A stretch of 34,109 nucleotides of DNA from a virus (IMGVR_UViG_2913167280_000005:1-34109), one strand, 5' to 3'. Shown: positions 1,866-30,193, counted from the first letter of the stretch. Program-made: numbers and translations. Notes: a model not told the origin generated them from the sequence alone.

Positions 1866-1882
1866 ATTACCCTTTGGGTAAT
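1866..1882. promoter_or_regulatory. operator-like dyad ATTACCCTTTGGGTAAT (site G)
   Basis: Perfect 17-bp dyad read directly; lies in the intergenic region between the tail fibre start and the plus-strand 86-aa ORF. Confidence 0.35.
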
Positions 1883-1958
1883 TTGCACAACGTGCTGGAT
1901 AGGCTGCGAAACTTCTGATATATGTATATATATACAGTGCTCGCATGGAGAACACGAG

Positions 1959-2219
1959 ATGCAACGGCAGTATCATCACCCTCTGGAAGATGGATTCGCA
2001 GAACGCATACACACGCCGGGAGGCGTAAGATCCCTGATTGAAGAATCGCACCTGATGGACTTGCTGAGAGAGTTGCAAAAAGACGGGTACGACGTTAGCG
2101 GGGCAACGGCGGAACTTACCGCGCTTGTTAACTACGTCACAAGCTCACAAATTTCTATGAAAGATTTGCAGACACATCTGGACTACTGCGCCATGCAGCT
2201 ACAGCAGCAACTTAGATAG
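1959..2219 (+). CDS. hypothetical 86-aa protein encoded antisense to the late operon (moron-like)
   Basis: ORF with GGAGA 7 nt upstream of its ATG, preceded by an AT-rich tract (TATATGTATATATATACA) and followed by a GC hairpin at 2231-2246. No recognisable domain. Confidence 0.35.
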   Translation: MQRQYHHPLEDGFAERIHTPGGVRSLIEESHLMDLLRELQKDGYDVSGATAELTALVNYVTSSQISMKDLQTHLDYCAMQLQQQLR

Positions 2220-17073: not shown

Positions 17074-17381
17074 AAATTGTCCTCACCGGCCTCTGCGGCC
17101 ATCTTCAGATACTGATCCGGGCAGTGCGCCATTACGCGCTGAAATAGCATCAGCGCCAGATTGCGCTGCCCTTCGTTGAATGCAGTCACATACGGGTCAT
17201 TGGTGAAGCAAGGGCCAAAAACACTTCCCTTTTCCAGCAGAGACCACAACACCCGACGGCCCTGTTCAGATCCCATGACGCGTTGAATGTCTTCAATGTC
17301 GCGCTTACGAAGAATCTCATTGGCCACTTCACGGGCTTTTCTTTCTTCGGCGTTCTCTTCATCAAGCAGATCGCTCACCAT
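17070..17381 (-). CDS. hypothetical head protein (about 103 aa)
   Basis: ATG at 17381 overlaps the portal stop (ATGA). Confidence 0.5.
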   Translation of the reverse strand: MVSDLLDEENAEERKAREVANEILRKRDIEDIQRVMGSEQGRRVLWSLLEKGSVFGPCFTNDPYVTAFNEGQRNLALMLFQRVMAHCPDQYLKMAAEAGEDNL

Positions 17382-19066
17382 CACTGACGAGCCCCCGCGC
17401 CAGTGGCGTTAGCCGCTGCGTTTGAAATGGCAGTCAACGCGCTAGGGTCCGACGTCTGCGTTTCGCTGAGAGTCTTGGCCCCCTGAGCCGCTGCCATCCC
17501 CATCTGCATCTGTTGCTGCATCTGAGCCTGTTCGGCGCGAGCTTTACGCAACTGCTCAACCTCTTCCTGCGAGGTGATAACGCTCGGCGATACGCCGGAC
17601 ATTTCCGCGAATGCGTCGATCGCTTCGTCGGCATTGAGCTTGTCGAGTGCTTCCGGTTTGACGGTCGCCAGCTGACCAATGAATGCAACGGTCTGAGAAA
17701 GGCTGGAAATTCCGATTGATTTCTGTGCCTGCGCCATCACCGAGATGTACTCGACTTTCAGCGGCATGCCCTGCATGACCTCAGGCGGTGGCGGCAGCAT
17801 GTTCTTGCGTGCCATGATGGAGAATGCGCGGTCGATAAGCGGGTTAAGGCACTCGTCATTGAGGCGCTCGAGCACCGGGCCAAGCATCAGGAGCTTCTCT
17901 TCCTTCATCTCGATCACCGCTTCAACAGGCATTGAGCGGGTATTGATGTTCTGCAACATCATGAAGAGGTCGACGAAGTAGGCGTTTTTGATGACCTGGC
18001 GTGTGTCCTGAATGTCAGCCAGCAGGTCGGCGGTGTTCGGGTTTACGAGGTAAGCAGGTTTGAATCCGTCCTGATTACCCACCTGGTCGATGTAGGTGAT
18101 GTCGCCAGGCAGCAGGGAGACGCGCTGATTCTTCAGTGACGACGGACCGATCATTGGTGGATTGGTGGCCTTGTCGATCAGCTGGCTCTTGCGTTTCTGC
18201 TCAAGCTGAAGCGCCTTCACCGGGCCCAGTGCAATCATGCCTGGGCAAGATGAGCCGTAAACGTCCTCGCCGTTAACTTCCCAGCGCGGAGCCATGATCG
18301 GGAATTCGTCGTAGCCGGACTCGCGCAGCAGCTTTTCGTTGTCGCCGCCAACCTCAAAGTAAACCGACTTGTACGGCTTGTTCTTGCTGTCCAGCTTGCC
18401 AGTGTCGCGGTCGGTGTTCGGGTATACGGAATGAATCACCTCGATCCACTTCTCGTATGTTCCGTTTTCCCACATGCTTTTAACGGAAGTGCTGACCTTA
18501 TCAAGGCCGAATTCCATCACCATCTGGCGAACGGTCATCGAGAACTTACGGAAGCAGGTATCGACGCTGCCGCGAGCAGAGTTCGACAGGTAGTAGCTGC
18601 CAATCGGGAACATCTGCGTACGGATGATATCGGTGTCGTCTTCCAGTACAGCCATTGCACCAGAGCTGTACGTTCCGAGTGAGGAATACAGCAGCGGCAA
18701 AGACTGATACAGGTTCGAGCGGTTGAACATTTCGTTCATGTATCGCTGAACGGTTTCGCACCACTGCTTAACCGGGCCGTAATCCATCATGTCGGGATCA
18801 GGTGTTGCCAGCTTGAACCACGGACGGGCCGGACTGGTGATGCCTGACATCATGCCACTGGAAAGCACGCGCTCTGCCAGGGTCGCGGTAGGGTCAATGA
18901 TTCTGGTATTGCGGCGATCACGGTTTACGTCAGTGACCAGGAAACGGGAACCACGCGGAATGATGTAATCACTCAGCTCTCGCCAGTGAGATTCGAACGA
19001 AGTACGCTCATTCTCCATTTGCGCAAGCTGCTTAATCAGTTGCTCTTTTACGGTTTCCGTCGCCAT
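17381..19066 (-). CDS. portal protein (561 aa)
   Basis: Size and position between the terminase genes and the scaffold/capsid genes; ATG at 19066. Confidence 0.8.
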   Translation of the reverse strand: MATETVKEQLIKQLAQMENERTSFESHWRELSDYIIPRGSRFLVTDVNRDRRNTRIIDPTATLAERVLSSGMMSGITSPARPWFKLATPDPDMMDYGPVKQWCETVQRYMNEMFNRSNLYQSLPLLYSSLGTYSSGAMAVLEDDTDIIRTQMFPIGSYYLSNSARGSVDTCFRKFSMTVRQMVMEFGLDKVSTSVKSMWENGTYEKWIEVIHSVYPNTDRDTGKLDSKNKPYKSVYFEVGGDNEKLLRESGYDEFPIMAPRWEVNGEDVYGSSCPGMIALGPVKALQLEQKRKSQLIDKATNPPMIGPSSLKNQRVSLLPGDITYIDQVGNQDGFKPAYLVNPNTADLLADIQDTRQVIKNAYFVDLFMMLQNINTRSMPVEAVIEMKEEKLLMLGPVLERLNDECLNPLIDRAFSIMARKNMLPPPPEVMQGMPLKVEYISVMAQAQKSIGISSLSQTVAFIGQLATVKPEALDKLNADEAIDAFAEMSGVSPSVITSQEEVEQLRKARAEQAQMQQQMQMGMAAAQGAKTLSETQTSDPSALTAISNAAANATGAGARQ

Positions 19067-19080
19067 TTCGCAGGACTCCG

Positions 19081-19287
19081 TTACTGTCCGAGCAGCGTTT
19101 TACCGCTGGTATTTGCGGTCGAGGTATCGCCTTGCGCACCGGTCAGCATCGTGGACTTCTGCCCGGCAGCAGCACGGCGTCGACGTTCTTCATCGTCACG
19201 CGCTGACACAACGGCCTGATCCTGTTCCTGTGGTGCGGCCTGAACTTCTGGTGCCGCTGGTACTGAAGGTGAGCCACCCATGCACAT
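19081..19287 (-). CDS. small hypothetical protein (68 aa) upstream of the portal gene
   Basis: ORF with GGAG about 9 nt upstream; Ala/Gln/Arg-rich. Confidence 0.45.
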   Translation of the reverse strand: MCMGGSPSVPAAPEVQAAPQEQDQAVVSARDDEERRRRAAAGQKSTMLTGAQGDTSTANTSGKTLLGQ

Positions 19288-19355
19288 AAACGTAACTCCG
19301 CACGCAATTAAATTATTACCAATTTAACCACATAAGGATTATTTTACGTAGTGCA

Positions 19356-19393
19356 TTGACATTTTATCGAGCAATTATTACCTTAAAGGTAAT
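19356..19393 (+). promoter_or_regulatory. candidate sigma70-type promoter (TTGACA, 17-bp spacer, TACCTT) overlapped by operator dyad ATTACCTTAAAGGTAAT (site A)
   Basis: TTGACA at 19356-19361; dyad at 19377-19393 overlapping the -10 position. Confidence 0.35.
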
Positions 19394-19399
19394 TAATCA

Positions 19400-20156
19400 T
19401 TGCATGATTGATTTGGTGAAGGATGTTGCTATGTGACATTCAACTCACCAGATGAGCCGAATAATTCAGGTTATCGGCTCACAACATGAGAGTGCATTCC
19501 TGACTATCCCCATACGGTAAGCCGTTAAATCCAAATGGTGGAGTGTGCTCTCAGTTGTGAATAACAACCGTTGTATGGCACATGCAGCGATAGCGGTCCG
19601 GCGGGTTCCTTGTAGGGTTCCCTTTCCTAGCCGGGTAGCCGGAATGTGCAAGCCTGGCTCGCTAACGGCCTTAGGGCGATTCACCATCGTGGCGATACGG
19701 TGTGACACCTCGGAAGAGACGAGGATGCAATGATGAGAGCATTGGTCATGGAGCGGTGGAGAATGAATCTGAGCTTCTTGGCGGTTGCAGCGGATTCTTA
19801 CATGAAAACCTGTGCTTTCTTCATTGTGGCAATGCGGCTGTGCGCACGTGACGAGGCATTTCATTCCACGCTTGAAATGAAAAGTTATCTAATAGTTTAA
19901 CGTCGTCAGCCGTAGCCGGGCTGACAGGTGGAGGCACCACCGCCACAAATCAAATCACGCCTCAGGACCGTTATACCCGTAGTACCTGTAACGATAGCTT
20001 TAACTTGGCGGTGTCAGAAACAACCATCCCGAAGTCGCTGGCACCGCCCTTTTTACACCAGAACGTCATTGCGATGGCTTTCCGTTGTAAACCCGTAATG
20101 CCAAGGAAGGCAGACTCCCATGCTTCCAGCTCGCCCACTTCGGTGGGCATTTTTTT
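19400..20156 (+). ncRNA. long untranslated leader / candidate structured RNA ending in an intrinsic terminator
   Basis: About 750 nt with no convincing ORF on either strand; stable hairpins at 19452-19480 and 19904-19924; a long GGCGGTG...CACCGCC hairpin plus CTTTTT at 20008-20055; canonical terminator at 20133-20156. Confidence 0.3.
20133..20156 (+). terminator. intrinsic terminator (GCCCAC-TTCG-GTGGGC plus 7 T) abutting the ribosome-binding site of the downstream ORF
   Basis: Perfect 6-bp GC stem with a 4-nt loop and U tract; AAGGTGA follows immediately, with the ATG at 20169. Confidence 0.7.
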
Positions 20157-20168
20157 AAGGTGAAAATT

Positions 20169-20540
20169 ATGAAAGAGATTGAAGAACTTAACCCGCCACG
20201 CGGCGAGATGACAGAATACCTAAAACAAGCTATCGGCGAAGGATATCAGCCTGAGCATGAAGATGCGGTATCTGACCTGTCAGTGATTGATGGTCTGAAT
20301 GATGGAGATCTGAATCGTGAGTTCGGTAAGTGCTGGCAGTGGTACAATATGGGCGGCGGACTCCATGAAACATTAGAGAATGGACTATCAAAATCAGATG
20401 CCGATTACCGCAGTGAACACTTATACAACATGAAATTACAATGCCTGCATGCGGCGATTATTCAGAATGGGCTATTCGATAAAACCAATGCCACCAATAT
20501 TGCGGAAGCAATCAACGCTGGATTCGATGCCATTAAGTAA
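20169..20540 (+). CDS. acidic hypothetical protein (123 aa), plus-strand accessory gene between terminase and portal
   Basis: ATG at 20169 with AAGGTGA 5 nt upstream (track start is a GTG at 20160); about 23 Asp/Glu against 11 Lys/Arg; no recognisable domain. Confidence 0.6.
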   Translation: MKEIEELNPPRGEMTEYLKQAIGEGYQPEHEDAVSDLSVIDGLNDGDLNREFGKCWQWYNMGGGLHETLENGLSKSDADYRSEHLYNMKLQCLHAAIIQNGLFDKTNATNIAEAINAGFDAIK

Positions 20541-20544
20541 CACC

Positions 20545-20556
20545 GTGACACGTCAC
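20545..20556. repeat. 12-bp palindrome GTGACACGTCAC, copy 2 of 3
   Basis: Begins 5 nt after the TAA stop of the 123-aa ORF. Confidence 0.45.
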
Positions 20557-20715
20557 AATCATCCTGCTCATCTGTATTGGTTTATGAACTCAACATTGTT
20601 ATTCTGAATAGCGCGGTAAATTCTCGGGCTAACGAGACGGGGAAAGAAGGTGGCTGTTGTCAACCTGCCACATGCTGGGTATCAGCACCAGCTACCGCGC
20701 ACTGATGATGTCATG

Positions 20716-20741
20716 AGCCAGCCGATGCGCTGGCTTTTTTT
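20716..20741 (+). terminator. intrinsic terminator (AGCCAGC-6 nt-GCTGGCT plus 6 T) closing the plus-strand cassette
   Basis: Stem-loop and U tract read directly; ends 6 nt before the convergent terminase large-subunit stop codon. Confidence 0.7.
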
Positions 20742-20746
20742 GTGCA

Positions 20747-22213
20747 TCATGCAAAGGGGTCATAATCTGTTATGGCTTTCCCTTGCTGCTGACCCGGCAG
20801 ATTCATCTTCTTCGCTACCGGAAACGCGAAGGTCAGCAGTAGCGCGTCACCGTCACCAGGCGAACGCCCGAGACGATCTTTAATGTCTTCTTTCGGCTCC
20901 ATCACAATCTTGCCATCCACCCTGACTTTGTACTCTGCCGCCGACAGGTCATCGGCAGTCTGCTGATTGTCAAGCATACCGCCGAGCTTCAGCCATGACT
21001 TGCAACTGTTGAACATCTCGCCGCGCTTGTTAAGCATTTGCGGATCTGTTGATGCGCCACCGAACGGAACAAGTTGCCATGAACGCCCCCAGCCATCACT
21101 GACAGATTTCAGCCCGGTTCCGTAGCCGAAGTCGATGAACACTGCGTCGGCCTTGTACTCGTCCTCGAAGTCGGCGATGCGCTTCGCCATAATCAGGTCG
21201 TCGGTTGTCTTCGAGCCAGACCAGAGCTTTTTGCTATGCAGCCCCTGGCGCAGGTATATCACCGCGTCATCAGCACCGGAGTATGCCGGATCAACGCCGA
21301 TAATCACCGGCGCATGAGCCACCTGCGCAGCGGTAACGACGCGCTTCATCGCAGCATCAGTGAGCCCGGTCGGGATAAACTGCAGCTCTGATGCATCAGG
21401 GAAGATCCCACGCACGCGAACCTTCACGAAGTCAGAATCCTCGCCGTAATCGTCAACCCACTTCTGCAACTGCTCTTTGTTCGTGCCCTCTACGGTGCGG
21501 GAATCAATCTGCGCCGTCTTCCACCGATGCTTGTATTTGCGGAAGCACTCGCGGAAACGTCCGGTGTTTCGCGTCGGGTTACCGAACGCCACCCAAATAA
21601 TCTCGGTGTCCTCGTCCGTCAGAGCGCCCTCGGCAACCTCCCACACCAGATCGGCAATGTTGGATGCTTCATCGAATACCACAATGATCCGCTTGCGCTC
21701 GTTGTGCAGCCCGGCGAATGCCTCGGTATTGTGCTCAGACCATGGGATAGCGTCAGCACGCCAGCGCTTATCATGCCCGGCATCGTTGCTGTACATCGCT
21801 GTGGCGGTGCAGGTGAACCACTCTTTTGTGATAGCCAGGTTCGACCATTTGATGATTTCCGGCCATGTCTTGGTGCGAAGCTGGTTATCGGTGTTGGCGG
21901 TCACCACCACCTTGCAGTCCTCGCAGGTGGACATGCCCCAGTTAATCAGCATCGAGATGAATGCCGATTTCCCGATGCCGTGTCCGGATGCGCGGGCAAT
22001 CATCAGCGGCTGGTAACGTGTTGCGGGATTCTGGAGGTGATCTCGTATCTCGCGGAATGCGTCTGCCTGCCACTTACGCGGCCCAGTAGCGTGTGACAGC
22101 TCGGTGCCATCCTCACCCCAAGGGAATGCATACAGTGCATAGCCAAGCGGGTCATGTGTAAACCCGGCAATGTCCTCGATGAGTTGCTCTTCTGGCGACG
22201 GTGATTCGGTCAT
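20747..22213 (-). CDS. terminase large subunit (488 aa)
   Basis: Walker A-like GHGIGKS; ATG at 22213 overlaps the small-subunit stop (ATGA); size typical. Confidence 0.9.
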   Translation of the reverse strand: MTESPSPEEQLIEDIAGFTHDPLGYALYAFPWGEDGTELSHATGPRKWQADAFREIRDHLQNPATRYQPLMIARASGHGIGKSAFISMLINWGMSTCEDCKVVVTANTDNQLRTKTWPEIIKWSNLAITKEWFTCTATAMYSNDAGHDKRWRADAIPWSEHNTEAFAGLHNERKRIIVVFDEASNIADLVWEVAEGALTDEDTEIIWVAFGNPTRNTGRFRECFRKYKHRWKTAQIDSRTVEGTNKEQLQKWVDDYGEDSDFVKVRVRGIFPDASELQFIPTGLTDAAMKRVVTAAQVAHAPVIIGVDPAYSGADDAVIYLRQGLHSKKLWSGSKTTDDLIMAKRIADFEDEYKADAVFIDFGYGTGLKSVSDGWGRSWQLVPFGGASTDPQMLNKRGEMFNSCKSWLKLGGMLDNQQTADDLSAAEYKVRVDGKIVMEPKEDIKDRLGRSPGDGDALLLTFAFPVAKKMNLPGQQQGKAITDYDPFA

Positions 22214-22800
22214 TTCTCACCAGCCTCTCTGATGCGGCGGCGCGCGGATGCCATGCGGTCTGCAATGGTGACGGTGCCGGAAACCTCGAGGCGTTCTTTG
22301 AACGCCATAACATCGACGTGCTTGCCGATGAGCTCCAGATTCTTCACCTTGTCGGGCCATTTTATCTTTTTGAGGATGCCGACCAGTTCTTTCTCATCGC
22401 CGCGCCCCTCAAACATGTCTGCCAACTCGAATCCGGTAAGATACTGGCGCCAGACCCTCGGCCACTCCGAAACCGGTTTAATACTCATGTCATCGTTCAG
22501 AATGTCGATCACATCCATCTGGTCGATTTCCACCAGGCGAAGCAGAACATAATCAGCGCTGACGCGGGTGCGCTTGTTGCGCTCCTCCATGAGTTCAGCA
22601 ATCCGTTTCTGGATTCGCTCATCGCGCATCATGACGCTGGCTTTGACCGCCGCCGTATTAGGAGAAAATCCTGCGTCTATCGCCGCCTGAGACTGATTTT
22701 CAGGGCTCTTGATGTATGACTGGCAGTAAGCCTCCTGCATCGCTGTAAGCGGCTTAAATTGCGTTGATTTGCGTTTGTGTGGTTTTGGTTCCGCTGGCAT
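22210..22800 (-). CDS. terminase small subunit (about 196 aa)
   Basis: Directly upstream of and coupled to the large subunit; ATG at 22800 with GGTGG upstream (track start is a TTG at 22812). Confidence 0.75.
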   Translation of the reverse strand: MPAEPKPHKRKSTQFKPLTAMQEAYCQSYIKSPENQSQAAIDAGFSPNTAAVKASVMMRDERIQKRIAELMEERNKRTRVSADYVLLRLVEIDQMDVIDILNDDMSIKPVSEWPRVWRQYLTGFELADMFEGRGDEKELVGILKKIKWPDKVKNLELIGKHVDVMAFKERLEVSGTVTIADRMASARRRIREAGEK

Positions 22801-22802
22801 TG

Positions 22803-22837
22803 TTACCACCAAAGTAATTAATTACCGTTGTGGTAAT
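22803..22837. promoter_or_regulatory. two adjacent operator-like dyads (GTTACCACCAAAGTAAT and ATTACCGTTGTGGTAAT; sites B0 and B) just upstream of the terminase small-subunit start
   Basis: Read directly; centres 19 bp apart; B0 is a 4/5 half-site match. Confidence 0.4.
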
Positions 22838-25420: not shown

Positions 25421-25765
25421 TCAGAACTCTTCGACCTTCCAGCCTCCACCCGCTTTCTTTGGCTTCGGCGTTACTGCGATGATGCGGAACGGATACTGAT
25501 CGGCTGCCACTTTGGTTTTCACCCTGGCATCATCAGTCCACATGCCCTTCGCCTCGTGCAGTTCCATCTCACCGCTGGCGAGCATCACTGCAAAGTCAGG
25601 CGTGTAGAACGTGTTATCCGCCAGCCGCAGCTTGATGCCTTCAAACCGGTACCAGGCAACTTCCCCTGCACGCTTACGCAGTTCCAACATCTGGCAGTAG
25701 GCCGCCTCGGTCTGGTTCATCTGCCCGGTCTTCAGTCGGCCAAGCGCCTGTAGTCTCTTCTGCAT
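25421..25765 (-). CDS. small PD-(D/E)xK-type nuclease-like protein (about 114 aa)
   Basis: YTPDF...ELHEAKG resembles a D...ExK catalytic motif; ATG at 25765 with AAGAGG upstream (track start is a GTG at 25795). Confidence 0.5.
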   Translation of the reverse strand: MQKRLQALGRLKTGQMNQTEAAYCQMLELRKRAGEVAWYRFEGIKLRLADNTFYTPDFAVMLASGEMELHEAKGMWTDDARVKTKVAADQYPFRIIAVTPKPKKAGGGWKVEEF

Positions 25766-25831
25766 CGCCTTACCTCTTGGGTAATTAAAATCCACTTACG
25801 GATTAATATCAATAGTTATGCGCATTTATTT

Positions 25832-25846
25832 TTACCTGACAGGTAA
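25832..25846. promoter_or_regulatory. operator-like dyad TTACCTGACAGGTAA (site C)
   Basis: Perfect 15-bp palindrome in the intergenic region upstream of the nuclease-like gene. Confidence 0.4.
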
Positions 25847-25898: not shown

Positions 25899-26573
25899 CT
25901 ATGCGCCGTCGCTTCGAACCATGATGATGTGCCGCGCCAGCTTCTGCTGCCACTGGTATTGATTAAGCGACACCTCTTCGCATTTCCAGAAGTCGATGAA
26001 TGACGCCAACTCTGTTTTCCTGACACCTCGCTCAACCGGCGTACCCCATTCTTTCGACTGCTCTGCAAAGTCTGGATCTGGCCTCCAGTCTGAATGCATC
26101 AAAAAGTTATCCACAGAGTTTTTCGCGCGCGCGTTATGAGTGGGGTTTATATGGGGTTTATATTCTTCCTCTTCCTCTTCCTCTGGTAACGTTTTTTGTA
26201 ACGCTGGTTGCGTTACCTTTTGCGTTTCACGCTTTCTAAGTTCTGCCACCCTTCTGTTTGTAAGTGCTCGTTTTTTCGATGATTCTCCGTTATGCCGCTC
26301 AAAGTTAGGCAGGATGAGCTTTCCTTCCTGATAGGCAAGCCAGCCTACAGAGATCAGTGCGTCGGCGAATCCTGTAATAAAAGCGATCCTGTCGAACACT
26401 CCCTTTGTAACGCTGCCAGCGTTACCGTCTATCGTTTGTTGATCGGCCCATGCCCATATGCGAACCAACTTTCCAAGAACAGCATCCGGGTCAATATTCA
26501 ACAGTTCTGCTATCTGGAAAATCTCGGGCTTGTCAGGGGTGATTACTTCAACCTTAATCCAACTACTTGCCAT
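25899..26573 (-). CDS. replication protein (DnaT-like / replisome-organiser-type N-terminal domain, 224 aa)
   Basis: N-terminal region recalled as typical of prophage DnaT-like replication proteins; acidic EEEEEEE linker; position in the replication module. Confidence 0.55.
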   Translation of the reverse strand: MASSWIKVEVITPDKPEIFQIAELLNIDPDAVLGKLVRIWAWADQQTIDGNAGSVTKGVFDRIAFITGFADALISVGWLAYQEGKLILPNFERHNGESSKKRALTNRRVAELRKRETQKVTQPALQKTLPEEEEEEEYKPHINPTHNARAKNSVDNFLMHSDWRPDPDFAEQSKEWGTPVERGVRKTELASFIDFWKCEEVSLNQYQWQQKLARHIIMVRSDGA

Positions 26574-27624
26574 AGTTCACCCCCATATAAGCCCGGATGA
26601 ATTCAGCCTCAGCCTGTGCGTTTATGGCGTTACCGTAACCCTTAAGGCGGCCTGTTCGGTTGCGGCCTGCCAGTGCTCGTAATGAGGACTTTCCGTGTCC
26701 CAGGCTTTTGGCAAACCTTGCAACCAACGGGAATGTGCCGGATTCAACTGGACGCCATTGCCCATCTCGACAAAAGAGCCAGTCCGCATCTCGCCAAAAA
26801 CCGTTAACCTCAAGGGGCCCGCTGTGTATGCCTGTCTCGGCAACTGATCCAGTCGCTCCTTTCCATCCCGCTGCGCTGTCATGCCAGATGTGTCCTTCCA
26901 GTCGCGAGTCGTTGGCGTTACCCATCCGGCTAGTAGTGCTGTGCCCGGTAGTTTCAGGCAGACTTTCGGTGACCCGTCCTGATTTCTCCCGCTGTAGCAA
27001 TGAGTCGAACCGGTTGAATCGTTCGCCATTGGTGTTTGCCATCCCGTTAACCGCGCCGCTCCGGAGACATGTTGCAGGCCGCGCTTCGTTTCCGGCTGCG
27101 GGTTTGTGTTCGCCACTGGCGTGGGCCACCCAGTAGGCCCGCTCTCTGATGTGCGGCGCACCGACGCCCGCTGCCGCAAACGGCACAAGCCCGAAGGCGT
27201 ATCCCAATCCTTCCAGGTCAGCTTGTACAAGGTCGAACCATGGGTTTGCGTTACCAGCTGCAACCTGTTCGCCAAAGACATGCTGAGGTCCGCACTCGCT
27301 GATGAGGTGGAAGAAGGCTGGCCATAAGTGCCGCTCGTCATCAAACCCATCTCCTTTACCTGCCGCGCTGAAAGGCTGGCACGGGGGGGAGCCTGTCCAT
27401 ACTGGTTTATCGTCAGGCCATCCGGCGAGGCGGAGGGAGTGAGACCAGACACCGATCCCGGCAAAAAAGTGGTGCTGAGTGAATTCTCGCAGGTCGTCAG
27501 GTGTGACATCTTCAATGCTCCTTTCGTCAACTTCACCGGGCGCTATGTGTCCGCCGGCGATTAGGTTACGCAGCCACTGAGCTGCAAACGGGTCAATTTC
27601 GTTGTAGTACGCGGCTGGGATCAT
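26563..27624 (-). CDS. DNA cytosine-5 methyltransferase (Dcm-type)
   Basis: C5-MTase motifs FAGIGV (motif I) and PPCQPFSAAGK (motif IV, catalytic PCQ); ATG at 27624 overlaps the upstream stop (track ORF extends to 27696). Confidence 0.85.
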   Translation of the reverse strand: MIPAAYYNEIDPFAAQWLRNLIAGGHIAPGEVDERSIEDVTPDDLREFTQHHFFAGIGVWSHSLRLAGWPDDKPVWTGSPPCQPFSAAGKGDGFDDERHLWPAFFHLISECGPQHVFGEQVAAGNANPWFDLVQADLEGLGYAFGLVPFAAAGVGAPHIRERAYWVAHASGEHKPAAGNEARPATCLRSGAVNGMANTNGERFNRFDSLLQREKSGRVTESLPETTGHSTTSRMGNANDSRLEGHIWHDSAAGWKGATGSVAETGIHSGPLEVNGFWRDADWLFCRDGQWRPVESGTFPLVARFAKSLGHGKSSLRALAGRNRTGRLKGYGNAINAQAEAEFIRAYMGVNYGK

Positions 27625-27815
27625 GCTGCTTCTCCCGCTGCTTTCATCAGAGCTTTGATTTCTGCCTGCCGACGGCGGTTTGTTTCCATCGTGCATTCGA
27701 CGCAGTGTCCGTTATATGTCCAGCGTTCGCTTTGATGTCCGTGTTTGCAGACCTTGCCAGTGTAGTAGCGCTTCAACCCGCTTTTAGCGGCATCATTGCG
27801 CGTAATAATCTCCAT
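27621..27815 (-). CDS. small zinc-ribbon protein (64 aa) directly downstream of the Cro-like gene
   Basis: CKHGH...HCVEC motif; AGAGG upstream of the ATG. Confidence 0.55.
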   Translation of the reverse strand: MEIITRNDAAKSGLKRYYTGKVCKHGHQSERWTYNGHCVECTMETNRRRQAEIKALMKAAGEAA

Positions 27816-27893
27816 CTTCGTAACCTCTTTGGATTGCGGTTACGGTGATTTTCAATCAGGAGCAAAAAAAGATCAACCGTATACGGATATTTA

Positions 27894-27908
27894 TTACCTG
27901 AGAGGTGT
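27894..27908. promoter_or_regulatory. operator-like half-degenerate dyad TTACCTGAGAGGTGT (site D) in a module near-identical to the one at 29032-29069
   Basis: TCAACC..ATACGGATATTTATTACCT matches TCAACC...ATACGGATAATTATTACCT at 29032-29059 with one indel, but has no TTGACA -35. Confidence 0.3.
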
Positions 27909-27962
27909 TAATAGAAGTGATTAGGCCGCCTGACGGCGGCACTGAGGTGGTTCAGAGGGTGT

Positions 27963-28193
27963 TCAGGAGTAGAAGAATACGGCGAGCTCTGGTTTTGTTC
28001 TTACCCAGCCACGGGATTTGCATGCTTTAAAAAGCCCATTCATCAATGCCTTACCAGGCATTTTACGCTTCCCGGTCAAGTGCGTCTGGATGTAGTGAGC
28101 GGTGGTTTCTGCCTCATCTGCAAACGCTTTCCTTTCGTCAGGCGTGAGCTGGAGCCAGTGTTTTTTGAAATCGAATGGGATGTTGTCACTCAT
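27963..28193 (-). CDS. Cro-like early regulator (76 aa), assigned by position only
   Basis: Transcribed divergently from the repressor gene with operator dyads between them; no clear HTH recognised. Confidence 0.45.
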   Translation of the reverse strand: MSDNIPFDFKKHWLQLTPDERKAFADEAETTAHYIQTHLTGKRKMPGKALMNGLFKACKSRGWVRTKPELAVFFYS

Positions 28194-28260
28194 TTCTATT
28201 GCCTGATATTAATTTCAGATAACCAATATTCACCCATAAGGTAACAAAAAGCAAGGTTCG

Positions 28261-28292
28261 TTACCTGTACGGTGCATTTACCTGTGGGGTAA
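28261..28292. promoter_or_regulatory. rightward operator region: two dyads (TTACCTGTACGGTGC and TTACCTGTGGGGTAA) between the Cro-like and repressor genes
   Basis: Read directly; centres 17 bp apart in the 153-bp divergent intergenic region. Confidence 0.5.
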
Positions 28293-28346
28293 TATCGATT
28301 TTAATTGGCTCATAAATGATTCACTTACGAGACTAATCACCAGAGC

Positions 28347-28934
28347 ATGAAAAGTATCCACGATATTCGCCGCAAGAACCTCATCGATTTAATCGAACGC
28401 GATTTTAACGGTGTGCAAACGCGCCTGGCGGAGCGCCTGGATACTCAGCCTAATCTGGTAAACCGCTGGGCTCGTGGCACTAAAATCATCGGCGACCAGT
28501 CTGCACGTAAAATTGATATGGCAGCCAACAAGCCGACAAACTGGCTCGACACAGATCATGAACTTGTTTCTGTATCGGAATTCCAGCCGGTTGGCCCGAG
28601 TGATATCGGATTGCTGGCAGCTGAGAACCTGGCGCGCTGGATGCGTGAAAGTCGCGACCTGTCTACCCAGGGTAAGCTATCACGGGCATCAGGTGTGGCG
28701 CAGTCAACGCTGAACAGAATGCTCAACAATGAAGCCAGCATCACCCTTGCCACCCTGGAAGCCATCGCTGCCCCGTTCGGTCGCCGCGGTTATGAGTTGC
28801 TCATCCATCCGAAAGACCCCGCAGGAATCAGATACGACAGAACGAAGTACGCATCGTTACCTGAAAGCGAGAAAAGTAAGATTGAAAGTTTCATTGATTT
28901 TGTGATTACTCAGCACGCAAACAACCAGCTATAA
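28347..28934 (+). CDS. prophage repressor with two HTH (XRE-type) motifs, no S24 peptidase domain
   Basis: GVQTRLAERLDTQPNLVNRWARG and LSRASGVAQSTLNRMLNNE look like HTH segments; divergent from the Cro-like gene and followed by a strong terminator. Confidence 0.7.
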   Translation: MKSIHDIRRKNLIDLIERDFNGVQTRLAERLDTQPNLVNRWARGTKIIGDQSARKIDMAANKPTNWLDTDHELVSVSEFQPVGPSDIGLLAAENLARWMRESRDLSTQGKLSRASGVAQSTLNRMLNNEASITLATLEAIAAPFGRRGYELLIHPKDPAGIRYDRTKYASLPESEKSKIESFIDFVITQHANNQL

Positions 28935-28944
28935 CATACTGAAT

Positions 28945-28968
28945 TCTCAGACATAAGCCGCCATTGAG
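28945..28968 (+). terminator. intrinsic terminator (AAGCCGC-6 nt-GCGGCTT plus T tract) after the repressor gene
   Basis: Hairpin and TTTTTT read directly, 11 nt after the stop codon. Confidence 0.75.
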
Positions 28969-28991
28969 CGGCTTTTTTATCGCCCAAATCA

Positions 28992-29069
28992 TTACCCAAT
29001 GGGTAATTTTTTATCATCATATCTATTGACATCAACCCACATACGGATAATTATTACCTCAACGGTAAC
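28992..29069 (+). promoter_or_regulatory. leftward-operon promoter/operator: dyad ATTACCCAATGGGTAAT, -35 TTGACA (29026-29031), dyad ATTACCTCAACGGTAAC (29053-29069)
   Basis: Two dyads flank a consensus -35 hexamer; the second covers the -10/+1 region; the first ORF of the plus-strand operon follows at 29088. Confidence 0.5.
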
Positions 29070-29087
29070 AAGCCGAGGTAAAGAATC

Positions 29088-29237
29088 ATGCAGTGGAAGA
29101 TCATCAATGGTTGGTACTGCGTTACGGCGTGCGGGCTCATGAGCTGGAAGTTCCCGACGCTTGGTGAAGCAATCGAGTGGGCATTCGTCAGCAAGCTGGC
29201 GGTGAAAACAGAAATGGATATGGGGGTAACAAAGTGA
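29088..29237 (+). CDS. small hypothetical protein (49 aa), first ORF of the early-left operon; not in the ORF track
   Basis: ATG with GAGGTAAAG upstream; its stop overlaps a GTG start of the next gene (GTGA). Confidence 0.35.
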   Translation: MQWKIINGWYCVTACGLMSWKFPTLGEAIEWAFVSKLAVKTEMDMGVTK

Positions 29238-30193
29238 CTGATTTAGCAATTATCGAAATCGCACCAGATCTGGCACCAACTCTTTATGTTGAAAACGGAC
29301 TGGAATCCTTTCTTGAGCAAATCCGTGAAGCCGTAAAAGAAGTTCCTGACCTGAGCACAGCGAAAGGCCGGGCGCGCGTTGCTTCACTGGCTGCCCAGGT
29401 TTCACGCAGTAAAACTGCTGTCGAAAAGCCAGGTCGTGATTACCTGAAGCGCCTCAAGGAACAGCCGAAAGTGGTTGAGGCCGAGCTTCGCCGCTTCGTG
29501 ACTGAATGCGACAACCTTCGTGATGAAGTCCGTCGCCCTCTCACAGAATGGGAAGAAGAGCAGGAACGCATCAAAGCTGAGGAAGAGGCGAAGAAGAAGG
29601 CCGAAGAGTTGGCGGCAAAAGTCGAAGCCGACCACGAAATGGCACTGCTGATGAACGCCAATCACGACCGCGAAGTCGCTGAGAAAAAAGCAGAAGCAGA
29701 TCGCCAGCGCATTGCTCACGAAGAAGAGCTTAAGCGCCAGGCAACTGAGCAGGCAAAACGCGACGCAGAACGGAAGGCAGCGGCAGAACTGGCCGCAGCG
29801 CAAAAGCGAGAAGCTGATGCTATTGCTGCGAAGGCGCAGGCCGAGTTACTGGCGAAACAGGCAGCAGAACGTGCAGAGCAGGATCGCCTTAACGCAATCG
29901 CAAAAGCTGAAGCCGATGCGAAAGCGGCAGCGGAGAAAGCTGAAAAGGATAAGCAGGATGCGATCGAAGCAGAACGCATGAAGGCTAAACAGGCAGAAGA
30001 AGCACGCCTTGCAGAGCAGAAGCGAATCGCTGATGAAGAAGCGCGCCGCGCAGCTGACATTGAGCACCGTCGTGCAATCAATAGACAGGTAATTGCAGAT
30101 CTGGTTTCTGCCGGATTGCCAGAAGAGTTTGCCACCGAAGCTCTGAAAGCTATCGCCAGCGGAAAAGTCAGCAACACCATGATCAAGTACTGA
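29234..30193 (+). CDS. long coiled-coil protein (Ala/Glu/Lys/Arg-rich, about 319 aa)
   Basis: Highly charged heptad-like repeats (AEKAAAE, KAEADAKAAAEKAEKDKQ); start uncertain (GTG 29234 coupled to the small ORF, or the track GTG at 29177). Confidence 0.55.
   Translation: MTDLAIIEIAPDLAPTLYVENGLESFLEQIREAVKEVPDLSTAKGRARVASLAAQVSRSKTAVEKPGRDYLKRLKEQPKVVEAELRRFVTECDNLRDEVRRPLTEWEEEQERIKAEEEAKKKAEELAAKVEADHEMALLMNANHDREVAEKKAEADRQRIAHEEELKRQATEQAKRDAERKAAAELAAAQKREADAIAAKAQAELLAKQAAERAEQDRLNAIAKAEADAKAAAEKAEKDKQDAIEAERMKAKQAEEARLAEQKRIADEEARRAADIEHRRAINRQVIADLVSAGLPEEFATEALKAIASGKVSNTMIKY

What the first reader, a model, noticed from the sequence alone, without database searches (positions are those of the whole stretch)
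27872..27908. Near-duplicate of the leftward promoter/operator module placed to transcribe antisense through the Cro-like gene
TCAACC-GT-ATACGGATATTTATTACCT (27872-27899) matches the leftward promoter module TCAACC-CAC-ATACGGATAATTATTACCT (29032-29059) with one indel, but replaces the upstream TTGACA -35 with AAAAAGA and has a degenerate distal half-site. In plus orientation it would direct transcription through the Cro-like gene toward the repressor gene, a geometry reminiscent of an activator-dependent establishment promoter. Alternatively it is just a degenerate extra operator.
Basis: inference. Interest (0 to 1): 0.4.

Follow-up and report, generated by a model that had tools for sequence, protein, structure and literature searches.

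The report
Repressor-controlled promoter cassette downstream of cro
The repeat is real and conserved across epsilon15-like phages, but it most likely marks an ordinary repressor-controlled promoter that fires in the same direction as cro, toward the replication genes, not an antisense promoter for making repressor.

Summary
27873-27899 is a near-copy of the PL core at 29032-29059, and the shared 19-mer occurs twice against 0 expected. The window is an epsilon15-like (Uetakevirus) prophage with an SPC32H-type Rep/Ant switch. Its Rep operator is TTACC-N5-GGTAA, with 8 exact copies against 0 expected.

The repeat is the right-hand part of a whole cassette, 27834-27908. That cassette is collinear with PL and with another operator-promoter-operator cassette at 25770-25846.

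In 85 distinct relatives, the plus strand never has a -35. Its -10-equivalent has the critical A in only 46 of 85, and not in this window.

The minus strand carries -35 TTGATC (27876-27871), a 16-17 nt spacer and -10 nAAAAT (27853-27848) in 81 of 85. The 11 nt between the T-run and the -10 vary freely. A TnACC half-operator sits at the same offset from the -35 as in PL. The cassette lies just after the cro hairpin, which is a canonical terminator in 75 of 82 relatives, and about 26 nt before the Zn-ribbon, methylase and replication genes.

My best reading (about 0.5) is a Rep-controlled secondary rightward promoter. The PRE-like antisense reading is unsupported but not excluded. Nothing here was tested experimentally. 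It is a new, unannotated member of a known kind, of modest interest.

The parts
27925..27940 (-). GC hairpin (GCCGCC-GUCA-GGCGGC) just after the cro-like stop codon. Most relatives have a T-run after it, making a canonical intrinsic terminator; this window lacks the T-run.
   Evidence: The fold gives -15.7 kcal/mol, z = -3.8. Hairpin plus T-run is present in 75 of 82 distinct relatives. The T-run is missing in this window, epsilon15, SPN1S and a few others. The phiV10 record annotates a terminator here.
27894..27908 (.). Upstream Rep operator of the cassette, TTACCTGAGAGGTGT. One half-site is perfect and the other is degenerate. Its centre is about -60 from the proposed minus-strand start.
   Evidence: It is 2 mismatches from TTACC-N5-GGTAA. 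The GGTAA half is invariant across 64-85 relatives; the other half is GTACC, AGTCC, GCACC or ACACC. The site at 28261 between the cro-like and Rep genes has the same make-up, TTACC-N5-GGTGC.
27877..27893 (.). Conserved 17-nt linker between the operator and the -35. It holds most of the near-dyad AACC-GTATAC-GGAT (27875-27888).
   Evidence: The length is 17 nt in 83 of 85 relatives, with 0.21 differences per site. The composite AWCC-N6-GGWT-N5-TTACC also occurs at PL and at the 25.8k cassette (0.06 expected).
27871..27876 (-). Proposed -35 hexamer TTGATC on the minus strand. It overlaps a GATC site.
   Evidence: It is TTGATC or TTGACC in all 85 distinct relatives, with 0.015 differences per site. 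It is the top-scoring sigma-70 candidate at the same position in 30 of 33 sequences.
27864..27870 (.). A7 run (T7 on the minus strand). It fills the first part of the proposed promoter spacer. On the plus strand it sits where PL has its -35.
   Evidence: T6 is invariant in the 64 relatives with a 17-nt spacer. It is absent in the most distant relatives, L033, L040 and L041. Its role is unexplained.
27848..27853 (-). Proposed -10 hexamer GAAAAT on the minus strand, 17 nt from the -35.
   Evidence: nAAAAT is present in 81 of 85 relatives at 16-17 nt, while the preceding 11 nt vary at 0.51 differences per site.
27834..27848 (.). Degenerate downstream operator TCACCGTAACCGCAA (minus strand), 3 mismatches from consensus. 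It starts at the last base of the -10, 22 nt after the -35, as O1 does in PL.
   Evidence: A TnACC half-site sits at this exact offset in 64 of 85 relatives, and is TTACC in 28. The full 15-mer is within 2 mismatches in only 11 of 98.
27621..27815 (-). 64-aa Zn-ribbon gene, the first gene of the proposed transcription unit. A C-5 methylase gene and a DnaT-like replication gene follow it.
   Evidence: ORF map. phrog_1081; PF00145 and PF17948 for the downstream genes. The ATG lies about 26 nt after the predicted start, preceded by AGAGG.
28992..29068 (+). PL cassette, given for comparison: O2, 19 nt, -35 TTGACA (29026-29031), 22 nt holding -10 AATTAT (29049-29054), then O1.
   Evidence: It is the only 10-of-12 sigma-70 match in the region. 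Both operators are exact. It is conserved across relatives.
25770..25846 (-). Second cassette of identical geometry on the minus strand: O, 19 nt, TTGATA, 22 nt, O, then the ATG of the DUF1064-like gene. It lies after a hairpin plus T7 at the end of the replication gene.
   Evidence: The same cassette is present in BUCT554 and epsilon15. The epsilon15 record annotates a repressor site there.

Best explanation
The element 27834-27908 is a third copy of this phage family's operator-promoter-operator cassette. It works as a secondary rightward early promoter, on the minus strand in the same direction as cro.

RNA polymerase would use -35 TTGATC (27876-27871) and -10 GAAAAT (27853-27848) and start near 27841. 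The transcript would have a roughly 26-nt leader and encode the Zn-ribbon protein, the C-5 methylase and the DnaT-like replication protein. These genes lie behind the hairpin or terminator that ends the cro transcript.

In the lysogen, the SPC32H-type Rep tetramer would bind the upstream site (27894-27908, centred near -60). It would bind more weakly to the half-site overlapping -10/+1 (27834-27848). It would then clamp the promoter as at PL, or bridge to the operators between the cro-like and Rep genes, about 330-390 bp away.

What is shown: the sequence elements, their geometry, and their conservation against a variable background. What is inferred: promoter activity, Rep binding and clamping. 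The direct-orientation likeness to the PL core is read as shared ancestry of quasi-symmetric cassettes.
For: 1. On the minus strand, TTGAYC is present in 85 of 85 distinct relatives. The spacer is 17 nt in 70 and 16 nt in 13. The -10 is nAAAAT in 81 of 85.

2. Conservation comes in islands. Differences per site are 0.000 for GGTAA, 0.015 for the -35 and 0.000 for the T-run, but 0.51 for the 11 nt before the -10.

3. A simple weight-matrix scan puts the best minus-strand candidate at the same position in 30 of 33 sequences, scoring 9.1. The 25.8k cassette scores 9.4, PL 11.3 and the likely cro promoter 5.3.

4. The geometry matches PL and the 25.8k cassette. An upstream operator lies 17-19 nt before the -35, and a TnACC half-site starts 22 nt after it.

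5. A canonical minus-strand terminator lies between cro and the element in 75 of 82 relatives. A hairpin plus T-run read by eye (annotated as a terminator in phiV10) also precedes the 25.8k cassette. The family therefore seems to build its rightward arm from terminator-then-Rep-controlled-promoter units.

6. Rep is a full-length homologue of SPC32H Rep (PDB 5D50_A, E = 1e-44). A review describes that protein as binding palindromic sites as a tetramer (PMC9638917).

7. epsilon15, SPN1S and phiV10 keep the module even where their PL spacer has diverged.
Against: - The hexamers match consensus at only 8 of 12 positions, so the tool's own promoter scan does not list the site.
- A score of 9.1 is reached by more than 5% of shuffled 130-nt sequences (95th percentile 10.1). 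The case therefore rests on conservation among related sequences that are not independent.
- PL read backwards also gives TTGAWG-18-AAAAAT in many lineages. Part of the promoter look may be inherited from the cassette's symmetry.
- The downstream operator is only a half-site in most relatives and has 3 mismatches here. How the promoter would be kept silent in a lysogen is unclear.
- In SPN1S the spacer is only 15 nt. In the most distant relatives the -10 is CATTCT.
- The invariant T6 run and the GG before the -35 are not explained by a promoter.
- In this window the cro hairpin lacks a T-run, so read-through alone might serve the downstream genes.
- No transcript data were available.
Confidence: 0.5

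Rival explanations
1. The element is an auxiliary Rep-binding site only, with no promoter. Rep binds the conserved half-perfect operator, perhaps with the neighbouring near-dyad. It cooperates by DNA looping with the operators between the cro-like and Rep genes about 330-390 bp away, or acts as a roadblock to read-through from the cro promoter. The downstream genes are expressed only by read-through of the cro hairpin.
For: GGTAA is invariant, and the other half-site is within 1-2 mismatches in most relatives. The bona fide site at 28261 has the same perfect-half plus GGTGC make-up. Rep is described as a tetramer with DNA-binding pairs formed across dimers (PMC9638917), which suits bridging two sites. 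This window and epsilon15 lack the T-run after cro.
Against: It does not explain the invariant TTGATC, or the nAAAAT island kept at 16-17 nt across a freely varying spacer. It does not explain the TnACC half-site at the same offset as in PL. It leaves the replication genes behind a canonical terminator in 75 of 82 relatives with no promoter and no recognised antiterminator.
Confidence: 0.22
2. A plus-strand, activator-dependent promoter reuses a PL-like spacer, -10 and operator without a -35. It transcribes antisense through cro toward the Rep gene, as lambda PRE does. An activator such as the Zn-ribbon protein binds the invariant AAAAAAGATCAACC at the -35 position.
For: The module is collinear with PL in plus orientation (z = 6.5). 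It shares the composite AWCC-N6-GGWT-N5-TTACC with the cores of two promoters whose direction is clear. The invariant 14-mer lies at about -37 to -24 of such a promoter, where an activator that replaces the -35 would bind. Several lineages have good plus-strand -10 hexamers, such as AATAAT, TATTAT or GATAAT. The cro hairpin would not terminate plus-strand transcription.
Against: - No -35 exists in 85 of 85 relatives.
- Position 2 of the -10-equivalent is A in only 46 of 85, and is T in this window (ATTTAT).
- 31 of 85 have no acceptable -10 in any nearby register.
- No repeated activator motif was seen by eye.
- The nAAAAT island is unexplained.
- The Zn-ribbon family has no link to transcription activation, and its relatives are annotated as nuclease parts in unrelated phages.
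- The module is conserved in epsilon15 and SPN1S even though its similarity to PL is lost there.
Confidence: 0.1
3. The element is a binding site for another protein, such as Cro, the Zn-ribbon protein or a host bending protein. That protein would recognise the invariant AAAAAAGATCAACC and/or the AACC-N6-GGAT near-dyad. It would modulate early transcription or replication independently of Rep.
For: The 14-mer is more invariant than a -35 alone requires. The near-dyad recurs next to an operator at PL and at the 25.8k cassette.
Against: AAAGATCAACC occurs nowhere else in the window (10 matches with up to 2 mismatches against 8 expected). The IHF core matches only 7 of 9 positions (my own reading). 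The left half of the near-dyad is not conserved in the 25.8k cassettes of relatives. GATC frequency in the window is ordinary.
Confidence: 0.1
4. The element is a decaying, functionless relic of a duplicated PL or 25.8k cassette.
For: Both operators are degenerate and the plus-strand -35 is gone.
Against: The core is nearly invariant across 85 distinct sequences whose Rep proteins are only 49-75% identical, while the flanking intergenic bases vary at about 0.5 differences per site.
Confidence: 0.03

Closest known systems
Rep operators of epsilon15/SPC32H-type phages (Uetakevirus); ATTACC-N5-GGTAAT sites annotated as 'protein_bind: repressor' in the epsilon15 GenBank record
   Same: The half-site sequence and 15-17 bp dyad are the same. 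The Rep/Ant proteins are the same type (5D50_A E = 1e-44, 5D50_E E = 8e-41). The site sits at the edge of an early transcription unit.
   Different: One half-site is degenerate. The epsilon15 record annotates sites at PL and upstream of the RuvC gene but none in the gp39-gp40 gap, which holds the homologous element. Binding has not been tested here.
PL and the 25.8k cassette of the same phage (operator, 19 nt, -35, 22 nt, operator)
   Same: The overall operator-to-operator span is similar: 75 nt against 77 nt. The -35-to-proximal-operator offset is the same, 22 nt. A hairpin, with a T-run before the 25.8k cassette and in most relatives here, lies upstream on the transcribed strand.
   Different: Both operators are imperfect. 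The upstream operator is 17 nt rather than 19 nt from the -35. The strongest sequence identity to those cassettes is in the orientation opposite to the conserved -35/-10 pair.
Lambda PRE, the CII-dependent establishment promoter (own knowledge of the lambda literature)
   Same: It lies downstream of cro. A plus-strand transcript would run antisense through cro toward the repressor gene. The -35 is poor.
   Different: No TTGC-N6-TTGC-type repeats were seen, the -10 is not conserved, and no CII homologue is identified. The only conserved hexamer pair is on the other strand.
Auxiliary operators that act by looping, such as lambda OL-OR and the downstream OD site of TP901-1 (own knowledge)
   Same: It is a weaker repressor site a few hundred bp from the main switch, beyond the cro-like gene. 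The repressor is tetrameric.
   Different: Looping was not tested. Here the site is embedded in a promoter-like cassette.
Prophage repressor acting directly on a separate replication-gene promoter, as described for N15 CB and repA (own knowledge, not checked here)
   Same: The logic is the same: replication genes have their own repressor-controlled promoter rather than depending on antitermination.
   Different: The proteins and operators are unrelated. No experimental support exists here.

Membership tests
SPC32H/epsilon15-type Rep operator | A 15-17 bp dyad, (A)TTACC-N5-GGTAA(T) | tested here: inconclusive
   27894-27908 has one perfect half (ATTACC) and GGTGT in place of GGTAA, 2 mismatches. 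The site at 28261, between the cro-like and Rep genes, has the same make-up. The perfect half is invariant in relatives.
SPC32H/epsilon15-type Rep operator | The cognate Rep protein is encoded by the same element | tested here: met
   The product of 28347-28934 is a full-length match to 5D50_A (E = 1e-44). Ant, at 1959-2219, matches 5D50_E (E = 8e-41).
SPC32H/epsilon15-type Rep operator | Rep binding demonstrated by gel shift or footprint | not testable with these tools
   The primary SPC32H papers are not held in the library.
Sigma-70 promoter, minus strand | -35 and -10 hexamers 16-18 nt apart, with A at position 2 and T at position 6 of the -10 | tested here: met
   TTGATC, 17 nt, GAAAAT: 4 of 6 plus 4 of 6, with A2 and T6 present. 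This is below the 9-of-12 threshold of the scan tool.
Sigma-70 promoter, minus strand | Hexamers and spacing conserved in relatives while the spacer sequence drifts | tested here: met
   TTGAYC in 85 of 85, nAAAAT in 81 of 85, spacer of 16-17 nt in 83 of 85. The distal spacer varies at 0.51 differences per site.
Sigma-70 promoter, minus strand | A mapped transcription start | not testable with these tools
   No transcript data are available.
   The -35 position reads AAAAAG or a similar non-matching hexamer in 85 of 85 relatives (73 of 85 are AAAAAG). I saw no TG at -15/-14 by eye.
   The window has ATTTAT. A at position 2 is present in 46 of 85 relatives, and 31 of 85 have no acceptable hexamer nearby.
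Lambda PRE-type activator-dependent establishment promoter | Located downstream of cro and directed antisense toward the repressor gene | tested here: met
   The geometry holds for a hypothetical plus-strand start at about 27901.
Lambda PRE-type activator-dependent establishment promoter | Repeated activator-binding motifs flanking the -35 position | tested here: not met
   No direct repeats were seen by eye around 27855-27880 (the repeat finder's list shows none there). The invariant 14-mer is not repetitive.
Lambda PRE-type activator-dependent establishment promoter | A CII-like activator encoded next to cro | tested here: inconclusive
   The adjacent 64-aa protein has no Pfam hit and belongs to phrog_1081, of unknown function. 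It gives a weak hit to an endonuclease VII family. Its activity was not tested.
Intrinsic terminator after cro | A GC-rich hairpin followed by a T-run | tested here: inconclusive
   The hairpin is present (-15.7 kcal/mol), but the tail is CTAATCACT in this window. Hairpin plus T-run is present in 75 of 82 relatives.

The most novel reading that the evidence does not exclude
The cassette is a two-faced switch element. The invariant AAAAAAGATCAACC is the binding site of a phage-encoded activator, possibly the adjacent Zn-ribbon protein. That activator turns on a plus-strand promoter lacking a -35 and running antisense to cro, which would boost Rep synthesis at establishment. This would be a PRE analogue in a phage family whose switch is otherwise run by a non-cleavable tetrameric Rep and an antirepressor. 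The opposite strand would carry the replication-operon promoter, so the two would compete head to head.
Probability: 0.08. Interest if true: 0.5.

Novelty: new member of a known kind. Interest (0 to 1): 0.28.

Why it matters
If correct, epsilon15-like phages drive their rightward early genes from a series of separately Rep-controlled promoters, each placed after a terminator. They would not rely on one promoter plus antitermination as lambda does.

The element also adds an unannotated regulatory site to the epsilon15, phiV10 and SPC32H maps. That is useful for people engineering these phages (phiV10 reporter phages, Salmonella phages) or modelling the Rep/Ant switch.

It is not a new principle. 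The operator motif, the Rep protein and the cassette design are already represented in the same genome and in the literature.

Tried and rejected
- **nut-like sites (one after PL, one after cro).** Rejected. The two copies are direct repeats on DNA, so they would be complementary on the two divergent transcripts. The PL copy also lies upstream of its start.
- **A second terminator formed by CCGTATACGG plus the T-run.** Rejected. The palindrome is not conserved (CCATATTCGG, CCATAAATGG, CCACAAACGG), and folding shows nothing beyond the cro hairpin (z about -1 to -1.8).
- **A known RNA family.** None was found at gathering thresholds in the whole window, and none was relevant at E <= 1 in 27500-29300.
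- **Concerted evolution or gene conversion between PL and the module.** Not supported. Identity is 0.756 within a genome and 0.731 between genomes.
- **DnaA box or IHF site.** Matches are only partial and not conserved (reading).
- **A small ORF starting at the TTG of GGTTGATC.** The stop position is not conserved (reading).
- **A special Dam site.** The GATC count in the window is ordinary.
- **Heteroimmune relatives as an independent test.** None were found. Every phage with the Zn-ribbon gene in this context has the same Rep/Cro type.
- **Closer relatives of the window.** Only identical copies were found.
- **Literature.** The epsilon15 genome paper and the two SPC32H Rep/Ant papers are not held. 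The ZX5 paper gives only predicted promoters.

Full report
**What the window is.** The window is an epsilon15-like (Uetakevirus) prophage. Its structural genes match epsilon15, SPN1S, Tyrion and BUCT554 at about 77-79% identity. The closest phage record for the immunity region is BUCT554, at 75%. The gene order is as follows:
- DnaT-like replication gene, 25899-26573 (-)
- C-5 methylase, 26563-27696 (-)
- 64-aa Zn-ribbon protein, 27621-27815 (-)
- cro-like gene, 27963-28193 (-)
- two-HTH repressor, 28347-28934 (+), followed by a terminator
- PL at 29026-29054 (+), then the recombination genes

The repressor is a full-length homologue of SPC32H Rep (PDB 5D50_A, E = 1e-44). An Ant homologue (5D50_E, E = 8e-41) lies at 1959-2219, behind a LexA-box-like sequence. 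The operator is TTACC-N5-GGTAA, with 8 exact copies in 34 kb against 0 expected. This is the motif annotated as the repressor site in the epsilon15 record.

**The observation.** It is confirmed. 27881-27906 and 29041-29066 are 85% identical. The 19-mer ATACGGATAWTTATTACCT occurs only at these two places, against 0 in shuffles. TCAACC starts at 27873, not 27872. AAAAAGA replaces TTGACA. The operator at 27894-27908 has a perfect TTACC half and GGTGT in place of GGTAA. The whole span 27834-27908 aligns with the PL operator-to-operator span 28992-29068 in plus orientation (z = 6.5).

**Comparative data.** I collected the homologous region from these sources:
- BUCT554, phiV10, epsilon15, SPN1S, Tyrion and two other phage records
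- three E. coli prophage records
- 111 viral-contig loci and 6 bacterial genome loci

Their Rep identity to the window ranges from 49% to 75%. These gave 85 distinct versions of the cro-to-Zn-ribbon gap.

Read on the minus strand, the direction of cro, the gap has a fixed syntax:
- a GC hairpin, followed by a T-run in 75 of 82
- a variable half-site, a variable pentamer, then an invariant GGTAA
- a 17-nt linker (83 of 85), moderately conserved
- an invariant GGTTGATC
- a T6 run
- 11 freely varying nucleotides (0.51 differences per site)
- nAAAAT (81 of 85) at 16-17 nt from TTGATC
- a TnACC half-site starting at the last base of that hexamer (64 of 85, TTACC in 28)
- about 25 nt further on, a Shine-Dalgarno sequence and the Zn-ribbon start codon

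**Comparison with the phage's clear promoters.** PL is O2, 19 nt, TTGACA, 22 nt containing AATTAT, then O1. A second cassette with identical spacing lies on the minus strand at 25770-25846, directly upstream of the DUF1064-like gene and after a hairpin plus T7. It is present in BUCT554 and epsilon15 too.

Read on the minus strand, the element under study has the same plan: operator, 17 nt, TTGATC, 22 nt containing GAAAAT, then a half-operator. In a simple weight-matrix scan it scores 9.1. The 25.8k cassette scores 9.4, PL 11.3 and the likely cro promoter (TTGCTT, 18 nt, AATATT) 5.3. It is the best minus-strand candidate at the same position in 30 of 33 sequences.

**The plus strand.** The -35 position never holds a -35-like hexamer: 73 of 85 read AAAAAG, and the other 12 do not match either. 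The hexamer homologous to the PL -10 has A at position 2 in 46 of 85, and is ATTTAT in this window. 31 of 85 have no acceptable -10 in any nearby register.

**Most likely mechanism.** The element is a Rep-controlled secondary rightward promoter. It restarts transcription after the cro hairpin and drives the Zn-ribbon, methylase and replication genes. Rep would act at the upstream site (centre about -60) and at the weak half-site over -10/+1. The two centres are 60 bp apart, against 62 bp at PL and at the 25.8k cassette.

A review describes SPC32H Rep as a tetramer whose DNA-binding pairs form across dimers (PMC9638917). That would allow one tetramer to hold two sites. This step is inference. 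Promoter activity is also inference, since nothing here measures RNA.

**Caveats.**
- The hexamers are only 8 of 12, and the site is missed by the scan tool.
- A score of 9.1 is not rare in single shuffled sequences: the median is 6.5 and the 95th percentile 10.1. The relatives are also not independent.
- These cassettes are quasi-symmetric. PL aligns equally well with the 25.8k cassette in either orientation. PL read backwards gives TTGAWG-18-AAAAAT in many lineages. Some of the minus-strand promoter look could therefore be inherited. However, the backward -35-like hexamer of PL is lost in several lineages, whereas TTGATC in the module is kept in all 85.
- The downstream operator is weak: 3 mismatches here, and within 2 mismatches in only 11 of 98.
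- The invariant T6 run and the GG before the -35 are unexplained.
- In this window, as in epsilon15 and SPN1S, the cro hairpin has no T-run. Read-through may therefore contribute.

**Why the direct-orientation similarity exists.** The composite AWCC-N6-GGWT-N5-TTACC is found at the module (+), at PL (+, the transcribed direction) and at the 25.8k cassette (-, the transcribed direction), against 0.06 expected. The module's operator also shares the central pentamer TGAGA with the proximal operator of the 25.8k-type cassette in many relatives. The module therefore looks like an old copy of a cassette core.

There is no sign of ongoing gene conversion with PL: identity is 0.756 within a genome and 0.731 between genomes. 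In epsilon15 and SPN1S the PL spacer has diverged to the shuffled null, while the module stays conserved. The module is thus maintained for its own sake, not because it resembles PL.

**Rivals.**
- **Operator only (0.22).** It fits the invariant GGTAA and a tetrameric Rep. It leaves the -35/-10 islands unexplained, and it leaves the replication genes behind a terminator in most relatives.
It fits the orientation of the homology and could use the invariant 14-mer as an activator site. It lacks a conserved -10 and any activator-type repeats. The Zn-ribbon family gives no hint of an activator.
- **A site for another protein (0.10).** No supporting pattern was found.
- **A dead relic (0.03).** It is contradicted by the conservation pattern.

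**Comparison with known systems and verdict.** The element belongs with the Rep operator and promoter sites of epsilon15/SPC32H-type phages. It is not annotated in the epsilon15 record, which marks repressor sites at PL and upstream of RuvC only. It is not annotated in phiV10 either, where only the terminator after the cro homologue is marked. It resembles lambda PRE in position only.

It is a new member of a known kind. It is useful for annotating and engineering these phages, and of modest general interest.

Noticed in passing
window 1867-2219: A complete SPC32H-type antirepressor module is present. Ant lies at 1959-2219 (+) and matches PDB 5D50_E (E = 8e-41). A LexA-box-like ATGTATATATATACAG lies at 1922-1937. 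A perfect Rep operator, TTACCCTTTGGGTAA, lies at 1867-1881, about 80 nt upstream. Ant may therefore be under dual LexA and Rep control.
   Followed up: partly
window 25770-25846 (-): A third early promoter cassette has exactly the PL geometry: O, 19 nt, TTGATA, 22 nt, O. It lies directly upstream of the DUF1064 / Holliday-junction-resolvase-like gene 25421-25795, after a hairpin plus T7 at the end of the replication gene. It is conserved in BUCT554 and epsilon15.
   Followed up: yes
window 22803-22836 (-): Two tandem Rep operators, one perfect and one with 1 mismatch, lie 4 nt apart. They end 2 nt before the ATG of gene 22210-22812, apparently the first late gene. A terminator-like hairpin lies immediately upstream of them. 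A -10-like TAGTAT overlaps the first T of the operator, but there is no -35. This may be an activator-dependent late promoter under Rep control.
   Followed up: partly
window 19067-20746: A 1.7-kb stretch lies between the portal gene (17381-19066, -) and the large terminase gene (20747-22213, -). It has poor coding signal apart from a 126-aa plus-strand ORF at 20160-20540. It holds a perfect Rep operator at 19378 next to a TTGACA. It also holds a third partial copy of the PL core (AACCACATAAGGATTATTTTAC, about 19322-19343). This looks like an inserted accessory gene (a 'moron') with its own Rep-controlled promoter. There are no Rfam hits.
   Followed up: partly
window 27925-27962 versus relatives: The hairpin after cro is followed by a T-run in 75 of 82 distinct relatives. 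The T-run is missing in this window, epsilon15, SPN1S, L031, L032, L039 and L125. Six of these seven, all but L125, carry ACACC as the distal operator half-site.
   Followed up: partly
window 27621-27627: The Zn-ribbon stop codon and the probable methylase start (MIPAAYY...) overlap as ATGA. This suggests translational coupling. The longer 377-aa ORF listed from 27696 is probably an over-extension.
   Followed up: no
window 28200-28225: A conserved inverted repeat, CTGATATTAATTTCAG, lies between the likely cro promoter -10 and the cro start codon. It is also present in BUCT554. Its function is unknown; it could be a 5'UTR structure or a protein-binding site.
   Followed up: no
L128 / L129: The same Rep protein and a 171-bp stretch spanning this cassette (window 27800-27970) occur, 100% identical, in NCBI assembly GCA_004745395.1 (contig PDII01000024.1) and in run SRR8835200. 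These are probably the source of the window or a clone of it.
   Followed up: yes
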